This document shows, one piece after another, positions 36,524 to 53,760 of a DNA stretch of 64,000 bases. The position numbers and the translations under genes were made by a program. The stretch covers positions 105,774,001 through 105,838,000 of the forward strand of contig NC_086107.1 in assembly GCF_963921235.1 (NCBI RefSeq), read 5' to 3'. Source of the DNA: Mobula hypostoma (Eukaryota). Within the stretch, counting starts at the first letter, position 1, and every line of letters begins with the position of its first letter. The notes beneath the pieces are model-generated. The model was not told the DNA's origin and did no database searches. It saw only the letters and a list, made by a program, of their open reading frames with translations.

Positions 36524-36742
36524 ACAACACCCACAAAATGCTGGAGGAAATTCAGCATCTATGGAAAAGAGTAAACAGTCGACTTCTTGCGCCGAGAACT
36601 GTCATCAGGACTGATGAAGGGTCTTGGCCCGAAATGTCGACTGTTTACATTTTTCCATTGATGCTGCCTGGCCTGCTGAATTTCCTCCAGCATTTTGTGG
36701 GTGTTACTTTGGATTTCCAGCATCCGCAAATTCCCTCTTGTC
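36524..36742. mobile_element. ORF-less PLE-derived fold-back element with back-to-back hammerhead cores and 13-bp TSD
   Basis: TGTTTTGATGTTG at 36511-36523 and 36743-36755; inverted arms; CTGATGA...GAAATGTC at 36611-36638. Confidence 0.85.
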
Positions 36743-36903
36743 TGTTTTGATGTTGTTGTTTTGTTGCTTGCTGTGTTCTGTGTTGCTCTGACGAGCATTA
36801 TAGGGCAAGCTTTGTTGGTGCCAGAACACGTGGTGACACTTGTGCCTGTCCCCGGCTGTCCCTCAGGTGTATTAAGTTGCTAAACAAATAACATATTTCA
36901 CTG

Positions 36904-38175
36904 CAAACAACAGGAATTCTGCAGATGCTGGAAATTCAAGCAACACACATAAAAGTTGCTGGTGAACGCAGCAGGCCCTTCTCGCAATTCCTCCGTCTCC
37001 GCCGCATCTGCTCTCAGGATGAGGCTTTTCATTCCAGGACCAGGGAGATGTCTTCCTTTTTTAAAGAAAGGGGCTTCCCTTCCTCCACTATCAACTCTAC
37101 TCTTAAACGCATCTCCCCCATTTCACGTACATCTGCTCTCACTCCATCCTCCCGCCACCCCACTAGGAATAGGGTTCCCCTGGTCCTCACCTACCACCCC
37201 ACCAGCCTCCGGGTCCAACATATTATTCTCCGTAACTTCCGCCACCTCCAACGGGATCCCACCACTAAGCACATCTTTCCCTCCCCCCCCTGCATTCCGC
37301 AGGGATCGCTCCCTACACAACTCCCTTGGCCATTCGTCCCCCCCATCCCTCCCCACTGATCTCCTTCCTGGCACTTACCCTTGTAAGCGGATCGAGTGCT
37401 ACACATGCCCTTACACTTCCTCCCTCACCACCATTCAGGTCCCCAGACAGTCCTTCCAGGTGAGGCAACACTTCACCTGTGAGTCGACTGGGGTGATATA
37501 CTGCGTCTGGTGCTCCCGATGTGGCCTTTTATATATTGGCGAGACCCGACGCAGACTGGGAGACCGCTTTGCTGAACATCTACACTCTGTCCGCCAGAGA
37601 AATCAGGATCTCCCAGTGGCCACACGTTTTAATTCCACATCCCATTCCCATTCTGACATGTCTATCCACGGCCTCCTCTACTGTAAAGATGAAGCCACAC
37701 TCAGGTTGGAGGAACAACACCTTATATTCCATCTGGGTAGCCTCCAACCTGATGGCATGAACATTGACTTCTCTAACTTCCGCTAATGCCCCACCTCCCC
37801 CTCGTACCCCATCTGTTACTTATTTTTATACACACATTCTTTCTCTCACTCTCCTTTTTCTCCTTCTGTCCCTCTGAATATACCTCTTGCCCATCCTCTG
37901 GGTCCCCCCCCCTTGTCTTTCTTCCCGGACCTCCTGTCCCATGATCCTCTCGTATCCCTTTTGCCAATTGCCTGTCCAGCTCTTGGCTCTATCCCTCCCC
38001 CTCCTGTCTTCTCCTATCATTTTGGATCTCCCCCTCCCCCTCCAACTTTCAAATCCCTTACTCACTCTTCCTTCAGTTAGTCCTGACGAAGGGTCTCGGC
38101 CTGAAACGTCGACTGCACCTCTTCCTACAGATGCTGCCTGGCCTGCTGCGTTCACCAGCAACTTTTATGTGTGTT
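36904..38175 (+). mobile_element. 5'-truncated PLE (RT C-terminus, Cys-rich linker, GIY-YIG; frameshift ~37285) with inverted tailed 5' arm and 13-bp TSD
   Basis: 'FSQFLRLRRICS..FFKERGFP', 'PCKRIECYTCPY', 'VIYCVWCSRCGLLYIGET'; TSD ACATATTTCACTG at 36891-36903 and 38176-38188; perfect inverted repeat 36942-36977/38140-38175. Confidence 0.95.
38078..38115 (+). ncRNA. Minimal type-I hammerhead ribozyme
   Basis: TAGTC CTGACGA AGG..CCT GAAAC GTC^GACTG; predicted cut after 38110. Confidence 0.85.
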
Positions 38176-39409
38176 ACATATTTCACTGTATGTCTCAATG
38201 TACACGTGATAAATAAACCTGAATCTTCAATCTGAATTATTTGGTCAGTATGAATCTGGAAGAAGATGACGCTAGTGAACAACGCGACCGAGGACAACAT
38301 CCTTCAGAAAGTTCATGAAATTACTTCTTTCACTTCTTTTTCTTTCAAATGTGGTTCTGGTCTGGTTGGAACATGTGATCTACGGTTTGGTGGTGCGTTT
38401 CCCAGCCAACTGAGCGATCTGGCGCTTTGTCGTCTCCATGGGGCTCCTGTGAGGTGAGCAGCCCTGAGGCCAAGACGCCTGGAGACAGGGCGCGAACCCA
38501 TGATCGACTGCATTTATCAGATTAAAGTGCTGAGGAAGACTGAAATCATTGAGGTGAGCACAGAAGGCAAGTGGGTGTCTCGCGCTGTCTATCAGCCTCT
38601 TGCTCGCTGCTGATGGAGGAAGATGTCTGCGTATGACGGTCTCTCTTTCCCTCTCCCTTGTTTCTCCTGGAGGAAGGTCCTTGCGTTCAAATGGTTTCTC
38701 ACCCCCTCGATGCTGTTGGACGATGGTCGCAGATTTTCTAGGTCTTGGATAAAGTTTACTCGACACAGTTTGTGGATTGGACTCTGAGTTCACGCTGTGA
38801 TGTGTTTCTGGTTTCTGGTCGCTCCCTTTTTTTGTTGATATGTTGGGCGACTTTGAGTCAGGGCAGCCTGCAGGTAACAAACACCGAGCAGAACTGAATA
38901 TGCCTGGACTCTTACAATTTTGTGTTTTTCACTCTGTGTTTTTTGCTCTTTTTTTGTTGGTGTTTGCGCAATTTGTTTTTTTTTTGTGTTGTTGCGGGGT
39001 GCAGGTTAGTGTTTTTCTCAGAACATGTTCCATGGTTTTCTTTGTTTCATGGCTGCCCGTGGGGAAGACAAATCTCAGGTTTATTATCATAGTTTGATAA
39101 TAAATATTCCTTGAATCTTTGAATAAAGTTTTTCTCTCTGCATTAGTATAGGTGATAATAATTCCCTTCTCTCCACCATTTTATACTTGGCCTGAAACAT
39201 TACCTGTCCAATTCCTTCCACAGATGCAGCATGATTCATTGAGTTCTTCCAGCTGTTAGGGTGTCGCTCAGTTTCCAGTGTCTCCTCACCCCTTTGTGTG
39301 ACCCTCCATTCTAGACATTCCAGCTAGAGAAAATAGTGACTTAGCATCTCCCCAGTCAAACCTTCTCAGAGTCCTCCACATCTTGATGAGCTCAGCTCTC
39401 ATTAAAACA

Positions 39410-52075: not shown

Positions 52076-52821
52076 TTGATATTGGTTTATTATTGTTTAT
52101 AAAAAAGTTCAGTGAAATGTTTTGTGTGCCATCCAGACAGCTGAAGCCACACACAATTACAGTACACAAAGACAGTAAAAAGAAAAGAGAGTTTATCTGC
52201 TGTCTCCCACACTATTCGTCCCTAACTCTAGAAAGCAGTGTTGAAATTCATCCAGACTTCTGCTATCACAAAAAGACCCTTTCCCGTTTATTAATTCTCA
52301 CCCTGAAAGTTGAGTCAAAATGTGTTCTTGCACTCACTACAGATTGAGGTTTAGAAGTTATAAAGCAGTTTCAGATTTCTCAGCACAAAATTCTTCACCT
52401 GGTACGTTCGGACCACTGCTTTATTACAGCCGTCAGCTGCCCTGTTTGTGTTCAAGGCATTTACGTAACTTTAACAGTGTGGTGTCGAGTGGGAGTTATT
52501 CCATTCTGTAATGTGTTTAGGATCTGGGAGTTTGTGGCTATGGCGGGTGCTTGTGATTTGGGAACTCTTATGCATTTTCTATTCCACACGATCCTGTGAC
52601 AATCTGTTTACTGTTCTTAACTGTGATGGTTGAAGCACTTTGCCAGCTCACACTTCCTGCTCTGTTTATTTTGGGAGTTGCGTAGGAGGCAAGGAGGAGA
52701 GAAAAATCGGTGACACTAATAAGCCAGAAAGCTAAGGTACTCGCAAACAGTATCTCAGCTATGCATTAGAAAGTAATATGTTTCAGCATGTGGAGCATTC
52801 CATTAACTTATCTTTTCCGAT

Positions 52822-53300
52822 AAGACCATAAGATCATCAGATATAGGAGCAGAATTAGGCCATTTGTTCCACCATTTCATCATGCCGGATCCATTTTCCC
52901 TCTCAGCCCCATCTCCTGCCTTCTCCCCGTATCCCTTCATGCCCTGACCAATCAAGAATCTATCAACTTCTGCCTTAAATATACCCAATGACTTGGCCTC
53001 CACAGCTACCTGTGGCAATGAATTCCACACAGACTCACCACCCTCGAGCTAAAGAAATTCCTCCTCATCTCCGTCCTAAAAGGACACCCCTCAATTCTGA
53101 GGCTGTGACCTCCGGTCCAGGACTCTCCCACCATAGGAAACACCTCTCCGCATCCACTCTATTGAGGCTTTTCGACATTCGATAGGTTTCAATTAGGTCA
53201 CCCCTCATTCTTCTGATTTCCAGTGCATACAGGCCCAGAGCCATCGAACGCTCTTTGTACGACAAGCCCTTCAATCCTGGAATTGTTTTTGTGAATGATT
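52822..53300 (-). mobile_element. CR1 LINE 3' fragment
   Basis: 'LGLYALEIRRMRGDLIETYR', 'WNSLPQVAVEAKSL'. Confidence 0.9.
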
Positions 53301-53563
53301 CTTCTCTGAGGGCTATTGCCATAGCATCTTTCACATCTTTTTAAAAGTACTTTGCCGTCCCCTTGACGCACAGCAAGATCTCACAAGCAACGAGGTGTGT
53401 AATGGCCAGTTAGTTCTAAACTCAAGAGATTCTGCAGATGCTGGAAATCCAGAGCAACCACACACAAAATGCTGGAGGAACTCAGCAGGTCAGGCAGCAT
53501 CTATGGAGGGAAATAAACAGTTGACATTTCAAGCCCAGGCCTTTCAGCAGAACCAGTTAACCT

Positions 53564-53760
53564 CACAATGTGCTGGAGGAACTCAGCAGGTCAGTCAGCA
53601 TCATTTGAAAAGATTAGTCCACGTTTCGGGCCGAAACCCTTCGTCAGGACGTTTGAAAGGTCGACTAATCTCTTCAACTGATGGTGACTGACCTGCTGAG
53701 TTCCTCCAGCGCATTGTGAGTGTTCCTTTGACAACAACATCTGCAGATTATTTTGTGTTT
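53564..53760. mobile_element. ORF-less PLE fold-back element with decayed hammerhead and 12-bp TSD
   Basis: ACCAGTTAACCT at 53552-53563 and 53761-53772; inverted arms; minus-strand CTGACGA-AGGG..CCC-GAAAC-GTG. Confidence 0.85.

What the first reader, a model, noticed from the sequence alone, without database searches (positions are those of the whole stretch)
36524..53760. Recurrent ORF-less fold-back hammerhead elements with a one-sided tail and individual TSDs
Seen: three inserts (36524-36742, 47996-48265, 53564-53760) share one architecture: two inverted copies of a PLE 3' end, hammerhead core(s) at the centre, a ~37-43 nt tail on one arm only, and 13-, 14- and 12-bp TSDs. They differ in sequence, so they are independent insertions. 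Known: PLE pLTRs carry minimal type-I hammerheads and often occur inverted and tailed. Inference: these are either a stereotyped product of PLE integration or a MITE-looking, retro-mobilised ribozyme hairpin family. I cannot tell whether this has been described in this lineage.
Basis: partly seen in the sequence, partly recalled or inferred. Interest (0 to 1): 0.75.

Follow-up and report, generated by a model that had tools for sequence, protein, structure and literature searches.

The report
Shortest Penelope retrotransposon fold-back insertions
The three hairpin-shaped inserts are real, but they are pieces of the end of a very abundant Penelope-type jumping gene, likely built afresh at each insertion when two shortened DNA copies were joined head to head, a pattern already described for this class of element and probably not a self-spreading ribozyme family.

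Summary
Observation confirmed in outline: three head-to-head inserts with 13-, 14- and 12-bp TSDs and a one-sided 37-44-nt tail; E2's empty site lies in a paralogous repeat in the window. The arms are Penelope-like element (PLE) 3' ends: E2 is 97-99% identical to two longer insertions nearby, one of which (36904-38175) has the same fold-back, tail and 13-bp TSD but a 1.2-kb arm coding the thumb, linker zinc finger and GIY-YIG end of a Neptune-type protein. All four fold-back junctions differ and show 2-3-bp microhomology or a short templated insert. The ribozyme cores are mostly damaged and are predicted to be buried in the hairpin. In contigs from three organisms no strand-changing (E2-type) joint is among the 15 best-supported of 2,987, although the tool undercounts and one fold-back-type junction looks amplified about 20-fold. 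Best reading: de novo products of PLE integration. Inverted truncated copies, the tail and opposite-strand hammerhead pairs are in print; I found no description in rays. The scan has noted this same pattern several times elsewhere in this genome. No whole genome was held, so the junction census was not run.

The parts
36524..36742 (.). E1: fold-back insert of an older PLE subfamily; tailless arm 36524-36613 (-, with a 12-nt deletion), tailed arm 36611-36742 (+), tail 36706-36742; the arms share the 3 bases CTG at 36611-36613
   Evidence: upstream reference from the copy at 44480-44509 and the loose-end consensus
36511..36523 (+). E1 left TSD (13 bp; right copy 36743-36755)
47996..48265 (.). 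E2: fold-back insert of the young subfamily; tailless arm 47996-48115 (-), 2-nt insert 48116-48117 that repeats AAGAGT (48103-48108, 48113-48118), tailed arm 48118-48265 (+), tail 48222-48265; the most complete minimal hammerhead is at 48123-48160 (+)
47982..47995 (+). E2 left TSD (14 bp; right copy 48266-48279)
55907..56186 (+). Uninterrupted paralog of E2's host repeat: the empty site, target present once
   Evidence: 93.6% over 282 nt
53564..53760 (.). E3: fold-back insert of a third subfamily; tailless arm 53564-53650 (-) with the only hammerhead core, 4-nt insert 53651-53654 that repeats ACGTTT (53621-53626, 53649-53654), tailed arm 53655-53760 (+) starting at GAAA
53552..53563 (+). E3 left TSD (12 bp; right copy 53761-53772); overlaps the 5' junction of an older PLE copy
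36904..38175 (.). P2: same fold-back anatomy with coding sequence; 74-nt tailed arm 36904-36977 (-), 1.2-kb tailless arm 36976-38175 (+) coding the RT thumb end, linker zinc finger and GIY-YIG endonuclease (frameshifted), CC shared at the junction; 13-bp TSD 36891-36903 / 38176-38188
34915..35691 (-). P1: single-arm, tailed, 5'-truncated copy of E2's subfamily inside a SINE-like repeat; 10-bp TSD 34905-34914 / 35692-35701
   Evidence: empty-site joints 34904>35692-35703 in all four runs
53413..53552 (-). O53: older single-arm tailed copy next to E3, starting 3 nt upstream of the core; 7-bp candidate TSD CCAGTTA 53406-53412 / 53553-53559
   Evidence: a 7-bp repeat can arise by chance

Best explanation
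E1, E2 and E3 are head-to-head pairs of 5'-truncated 3' ends of an abundant Penelope-like retrotransposon, likely each made anew during integration when both DNA ends of one staggered cut primed reverse transcription and the two short cDNAs were joined. Shown: PLE origin of the arms, TSDs, one-sided tail, four different junctions, and longer members of the same anatomy. Inferred: the endonuclease cuts the two strands 10-14 nt apart; one 3' end primes at the downstream (tail) start site and the other at the site about 40 nt upstream, the two start sites shown in vitro for an anole PLE; the cDNA ends are joined by end-joining through 2-3 shared bases or a short locally templated patch; gap filling gives the hairpin and the TSD. 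The hammerhead sits near the centre because it lies about 100 nt from the priming sites and because many cDNAs stop at its outer edge, where CAG-TC-CTG offers an inverted microhomology and a splice-acceptor-like boundary (inferred). The ribozyme is a passenger.
For: E2's arms match P1 and P2 at 97.5-99%; P2 has the same tail, inversion and TSD with a 1.2-kb arm whose product is 91% identical over 167 aa to a ray protein that also carries the RT YIDD motif and hits GIY-YIG at E 0.00018, just below Pfam's cut-off. TSDs of 13, 14, 12, 13 and 10 bp, unlike fixed-length DDE duplications (own knowledge). Junctions: E1 CTG overlap, P2 CC overlap, E2 and E3 inserts that repeat nearby 6-mers. In 4 of 4 fold-backs the tailless arm reaches further upstream than the tailed one (offsets from the core C: -5 against 0, -26 against -10, -3 against +20, -1107 against +57), so the tailed arm cannot simply be a copy of the finished tailless arm. 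PAc RT starts at two sites that bound the tail and extends both cut strands (PMC11167929, parts 1-2 of 4 read). Fold-back-type joints at the core (35046/35047>36611) occur in 15, 13, 25 and 9 contigs of runs X1, X2, X5, X11, three organisms, at low depth (35-141), and no strand-changing joint is in the 15 shown of 2,987. Forcing the ribozyme helices costs 69.9, 19.4 and 13.2 kcal/mol in whole E2, E1, E3 against 8.1, 3.5 and 4.4 in single arms.
Against: Only four fold-backs were examined at sequence level; no genome was held and both collection scans were empty. One search used contigs, shows 15 of 2,987 joints and warns that some joints were not counted. It also lists one fold-back-type junction (34963>36605) in a single contig at depth 235 and 159 in the two runs of organism A, absent from B and D, against depths of 4-34 for the 32 contigs listed in table 8; and a second high-depth joint in X5 (36549>36701, depth 348) that I could not decode. 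Microhomology does not separate two-primer joining from snap-back. Arms within one insert share private variants, which snap-back or later conversion also predicts. The two-site priming was shown for a Poseidon element, not for this Neptune-type one.
Confidence: 0.68

Rival explanations
1. Same PLE origin and de novo formation, but by snap-back: one cDNA folds back on itself through a short inverted match and is copied, and the endonuclease then trims the tail from one arm.
For: Self-priming was proposed for palindromic inverted junctions in rotifer Penelope (PMC3846280, passages); the tail was ascribed to endonuclease resolution of the intermediate (bioRxiv 2021.04.23.441226, passages). E1's centre is an inverted repeat with a 2-nt loop, and arms within an insert share private variants. 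An earlier AI note on this genome says turning points follow short inverted matches (unchecked).
Against: In 4 of 4 cases the arm that must be made first (the one reaching further upstream) lacks the tail that the second arm carries, which needs an extra trimming step; E2 and E3 junctions have inserted bases rather than an inverted match; two start sites that bound the tail are shown in vitro.
Confidence: 0.17
2. The hairpins are non-autonomous units that are transcribed and re-inserted whole by the PLE protein, which would prime on the unpaired tail: a MITE-looking retro-family.
For: The tail stays unpaired in the predicted fold. One fold-back-type junction stands in a single contig at roughly 15-25 times typical contig depth in organism A only (tables 5 and 5c). 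pLTR sequences alone sufficed to move cargo in rotifers, and non-autonomous PLE derivatives exist.
Against: Four of four junctions in the window are unique and come from three subfamilies; no E2-type joint is among the 15 best supported; depth next to E1's centre is 1,146 against 1.29 million in the outer arm in X1 (confounded by E1's decayed inner arm). The high-depth junction could be a segmental or tandem amplification, as this window holds a 13,187-bp duplication at 99.97%.
Confidence: 0.11
3. The inserts are DNA-transposon MITEs whose terminal inverted repeats happen to resemble PLE ends.
For: Short, non-coding, strongly self-complementary, flanked by TSDs.
Against: TSD lengths differ (12, 13, 14 bp), one terminus carries an unpaired 37-44-nt tail so the ends are not inverted repeats, and the arms are continuous with GIY-YIG coding sequence in P1 and P2.
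Confidence: 0.02

Closest known systems
Endonuclease-positive PLE insertions with an inverted 5'-truncated copy and a one-sided 30-40-bp tail (Craig et al. 2021, bioRxiv 2021.04.23.441226 / PMC8557442, passages and Fig. 2 legend; Arkhipova et al. 2013, PMC3846280, passages; curation guide PMC8969392, passages)
   Same: Head-to-head arms, tail on one end only, variable-length TSD (8-10 bp in the rotifer cases), microhomology at 5' junctions.
   Different: The published examples that I saw keep an ORF or cargo between the inverted pLTRs; here both arms are cut down to 90-150 nt, so nothing coding is left. Host is a cartilaginous fish.
Minimal hammerheads of metazoan PLEs (Cervera and De la Pena 2014, PMC4209133, section 5 whole and passages)
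   Same: Type I core with an extra base after position 9, short helix I, palindromic CG in place of helix III; found in fish Neptune elements; the paper already reports pairs of motifs 100-700 bp apart on opposite strands in Schistosoma and ties them to truncated PLEs.
   Different: Here the opposite-strand cores are 0-38 nt apart; the young subfamily has G-U instead of G-C at the base of helix II; none of the five cores in E1-E3 meets every feature.
Poseidon element PAc of Anolis, in vitro (Frangieh et al. 2024, PMC11167929, parts 1-2 of 4)
   Same: Two internal RT start sites bounding the tail; both target strands cut and extended; ribozyme cleavage not needed for insertion.
   Different: Different clade (the protein here has the linker zinc finger); the parts read do not report fold-back products.
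Non-LTR retrozymes (Li, Clavereau, Pollet 2026, bioRxiv 10.64898/2026.07.22.740005, parts 1-2 of 5 and passages)
   Same: Non-coding, PLE-pLTR-derived, type I hammerhead; present in the one chondrichthyan sampled.
   Different: Retrozymes are head-to-tail tandem units with a complete ribozyme in each; these inserts are head-to-head single insertions with damaged cores.
L1 twin-priming 5' inversions (recalled; one search returned two papers, listing only)
   Same: Both target ends prime; junction with short microhomology; TSD kept.
   Different: In L1 the two cDNAs copy different parts of one RNA; here both arms copy the same terminal repeat sequence.

Membership tests
Endonuclease-positive PLE (Neptune type) | [quoted passage not shown] | tested here: met
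   In P2, not in E1-E3: VIYCVWCSRCGLLYIGET with later histidines; Pfam GIY-YIG E 0.00018, 22.1 bits against a cut-off of 22.6. E2 is tied to P2 by 97-99% DNA identity; E1 and E3 by about 80%.
Endonuclease-positive PLE (Neptune type) | Extra zinc finger in the RT-EN linker (Neptune and Nematis) | tested here: met
   CKRIECYTC in P2; same motif in ray homologs. Does not separate Neptune from Nematis.
Endonuclease-positive PLE (Neptune type) | RT domain that groups with Neptune in a tree | not tested
   The window holds only the thumb end; homolog P0004 has YIDD; no tree was built.
Endonuclease-positive PLE (Neptune type) | One-sided 30-40-bp tail, inverted truncated partner, variable TSD | tested here: met
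   Tails 36-46 nt in six insertions; TSDs 7-14 bp.
Minimal type I hammerhead of PLEs | CUGANGA and GAAA core, extra base after position 9, palindromic 15.2-16.2, helix I of 4-5 bp, cleavable triplet | tested here: inconclusive
   E2 right arm: met apart from G-U at 10.1-11.1 (helix I 5 bp). E2 left: GAAT. E1 right: no helix I. E1 left: helix II and GAAA decayed. E3 left: G at position 17, helix I 3 bp. E3 right: no CUGANGA (the cleavage-triplet rule is own knowledge).
Minimal type I hammerhead of PLEs | Self-cleavage (as dimer or protein-assisted) | not testable with these tools
   Folding cost in the whole hairpins is predicted at 13-70 kcal/mol.
Non-LTR retrozyme | Head-to-tail tandem units, each with a complete hammerhead | tested here: not met
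   Head-to-head single inserts; no tandem array at these sites.
MITE (DNA transposon derivative) | Terminal inverted repeats at both ends and a fixed TSD length | tested here: not met
   One end is an unpaired tail; TSDs 13, 14, 12 bp.
Propagating non-autonomous hairpin family | Same central junction at many loci with different flanks and TSDs | tested here: inconclusive
   4 of 4 junctions differ in the window; no E2-type joint in the 15 shown of 2,987; one other junction at high depth; no genome held.

The most novel reading that the evidence does not exclude
Some of these fold-backs have become transposable units of their own: a hairpin RNA whose single unpaired tail is the priming site for the Neptune-type protein, giving small families of MITE-looking retro-elements with a fixed junction. 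The high-depth fold-back junction seen only in organism A would be such a young family.
Probability: 0.12. Interest if true: 0.55.

Novelty: new member of a known kind. Interest (0 to 1): 0.22.

Why it matters
As a feature it is ordinary. Its use is as a read-out: how PLEs make inverted insertions is still described as undefined, and ray genomes hold a very large number of young copies (296,343 contigs of run X1 were laid on a 2.1-kb stretch). A census of tail side, arm lengths and junction bases would test two-primer joining against snap-back. In practice, such inserts can be mistaken for MITEs, and if transcribed they would form long double-stranded RNA.

Tried and rejected
Exact-pattern scans for the repeat found nothing in viral contigs or metagenome contigs; the second metagenome scan and the genome-contig scan were not used. 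Rfam at gathering thresholds: 0 matches. Base-pair probabilities of the ribozyme helices were near zero in single arms as well as in hairpins, so that test does not discriminate; the constrained-energy test replaced it. Search for longer homologs returned two chimeric gene models and no full PLE protein. The depth fall from 12.3 to 6.3 million between bins 34976-35047 and 35048-35119 (X1) is not used as proof of clustered truncation, since older subfamilies stop aligning there. Joints 35046/35047>36611 do not prove identical junctions: the letters between are not known and the reference forces those ends. Joints 34944>36525-36532 are ordinary tailed arms. Presence or absence of E1 at the orthologous site in organisms B and D could not be read from the 15 joints shown. 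Reading the large block 34910-38175 as one element with long inverted repeats was rejected: it is two insertions (P1, P2) with separate TSDs. Long ORFs in 1-30 kb are frames of a 33-bp satellite and their Pfam hits are low-complexity artefacts. No TSD of 7 bp or more was found for six older PLE remnants or for the fold-back at 61234-61526. Look-ups of earlier findings by words, by nearby place and by sequence were empty. No RNA run was examined.
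Full report
Observation. A bracketing repeat of 12 bp or more arose in 1 of 3000 random position pairs. Each insert has a tailless arm on the minus strand followed by a plus-strand arm that runs on for 37, 44 or about 43 nt. Arm identity is 73 of 88, 102 of 104 and 57 of 63; between inserts the tailed arms are 77-83% alike, so three subfamilies are involved. E2 sits in a host repeat whose paralog at 55907-56186 is uninterrupted and holds the target once (93.6% over 282 nt). 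E1 also interrupts a host repeat (paralog near 42464-42729; left flank score reached by 0 of 500 shuffles), but the target letters are not kept there. E3 has no empty site in the window.

What the arms are. E2 matches two longer insertions at 97.5-99%. P1 (34915-35691, minus) is one tailed arm of 777 nt with a 10-bp TSD; joints that skip it stand in all four runs. The long arm begins in the RT thumb region and, after a frameshift, codes a linker zinc finger and a GIY-YIG domain with two internal cysteines (Pfam E 0.00018, just under the cut-off). It is 91% identical over 167 residues to a Mobula protein model that also has the YIDD motif; the best of 30 hits among 80 candidates are from rays. 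The linker finger marks Neptune and Nematis; no tree was built. A profile made from nine window copies finds 17 PLE-end matches at E up to 0.05 in the window, those nine among them. One subfamily therefore gives single arms, unequal fold-backs and short fold-backs side by side.

Junctions. All four differ. E1's arms overlap by CTG, which is both the start of the catalytic core and the complement of the CAG five bases upstream of it; P2's arms overlap by CC; E2 has two inserted bases that repeat AAGAGT from ten bases before; E3 has four inserted bases that repeat ACGTTT from 28 bases before. These are the marks of end-joining (own knowledge). Counting from the first C of the core, the tailless and tailed arms start at -5 and 0 (E1), -26 and -10 (E2), -3 and +20 (E3), -1107 and +57 (P2); single arms start at -648, -3, -476 and -1178 (four decayed matches and one duplicated copy were left out). 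So the tailless arm reaches further in 4 of 4, and 4 of 12 ends lie between -5 and 0. The sequence upstream of the core is a pyrimidine run ending in CAG, and in Drosophila Penelope the intron ends at the 5' edge of helix I (PMC4209133, passage); an RNA boundary there is a guess that I could not test.

Ribozyme. No Rfam family reaches threshold. By eye and script the motif is the minimal type I hammerhead of PLEs. Only E2's right arm is nearly complete; the others lack helix I, the GAAA box, the cleavable base or the first half of the core. Because the arms meet head to head, any read-through RNA makes the antisense arm before the sense core. Forcing helices I and II costs 69.9, 19.4 and 13.2 kcal/mol in whole E2, E1 and E3, against 8.1, 3.5 and 4.4 in single arms. 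Cleavage was not needed for insertion in the anole element (PMC11167929).

Family or de novo. No genome was held. I laid contigs of four public runs (two of organism A, one each of B and D; 4 of the 23 listed) on 34760-36900. The repeat is very abundant: 296,343 contigs of X1 were laid, with summed depth of 12.3 million over the ribozyme against 40-61 in two bins of unique-looking DNA; this is not a copy number. Of 2,987 joints 15 are shown. None changes strand, which is how E2's junction would appear on P1, so it is unlikely to be in high copy; the tool warns that some joints were not counted. Fold-back-type joints at the core occur in 15, 13, 25 and 9 contigs at depths of 35-141, so the architecture recurs in three organisms, but the junction letters are unknown. 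Against my reading: one fold-back-type junction stands in a single contig at depth 235 and 159 in organism A and is absent from B and D, while the 32 listed contigs have depths of 4-34; and a joint of depth 348 in X5 could not be decoded. Segmental amplification could explain these (the window itself has a 13,187-bp duplication at 99.97%), and so could a small propagating family.

Mechanism. Shown: PLE origin, TSDs, tail, unique junctions, continuum of lengths. From print: PLE RT starts at two internal sites that bound the tail, and both cut strands are extended (PMC11167929, parts 1-2 of 4). Inferred: both ends of a staggered cut prime, one at each site, and the truncated cDNAs are joined. 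Snap-back, proposed for rotifer Penelope (PMC3846280, passages), fits the shared private variants within an insert but needs the tail to be removed from the first-made arm each time. I give 0.68 to two-primer de novo formation, 0.17 to snap-back, 0.11 to a propagating family and 0.02 to a DNA MITE.

Known and new. The inverted truncated partner and one-sided tail are standard PLE features, and opposite-strand pairs of minimal hammerheads 100-700 bp apart were reported in 2014. Retrozymes differ in being tandem. Searches showed no paper on such minimal fold-backs in sharks or rays; only 25 of 30 papers were listed and I saw titles and abstract starts only. Repbase and Dfam could not be searched, no supplements were read, and the library lacks most subscription papers, so absence from print is not established. 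Earlier AI notes on this genome describe the same pattern and reach a similar verdict; they are unchecked, are not independent support, and one supplied the id of the 2014 paper. Verdict: real, tidy, and a new instance of a known pattern; interest 0.22.

Noticed in passing
window 53406-53563: E3's target duplication starts one base inside the 5' junction of an older tailed PLE copy (53413-53552) and contains that copy's 7-bp candidate TSD; E3 seems to have inserted at the edge of an earlier PLE.
   Followed up: partly
window 36583-36600: In E1's left arm 8 of the 13 internal arm mismatches fall in an 18-nt patch over helix II and the GAAA box, mostly on the left arm; local error-prone synthesis or conversion of the outer arms are possible.
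   Followed up: no
joint 34963>36605: A fold-back-type junction in one contig at depth 235 (X1) and 159 (X2), absent from X5 and X11: possibly an amplified junction specific to organism A.
   Followed up: no
window 8-25886 and 29377-30218: Long arrays of a 33-bp satellite that give open frames of up to 1528 codons with artefactual Pfam hits; the array at 30130-30272 ends in an inverted copy.
   Followed up: partly
window 12751-16200 and 25938-29387: A duplication with period 13,187 bp, 99.97% identical over 3450 nt and including a truncated PLE copy: very recent segmental duplication or an assembly artefact.
   Followed up: partly
window 61234-61526: A decayed fold-back (68% self-complementary) of a different, non-PLE repeat; no TSD of 7 bp or more found.
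   Followed up: partly
window 35840-36260: A decayed minus-strand PLE end followed by plus-strand sequence that looks like PLE 3' region; perhaps an older fold-back.
   Followed up: no
window 36374-36903 and 42464-42729: E1 and P2 appear to have inserted 148 bp apart into the same old host repeat.
   Followed up: partly
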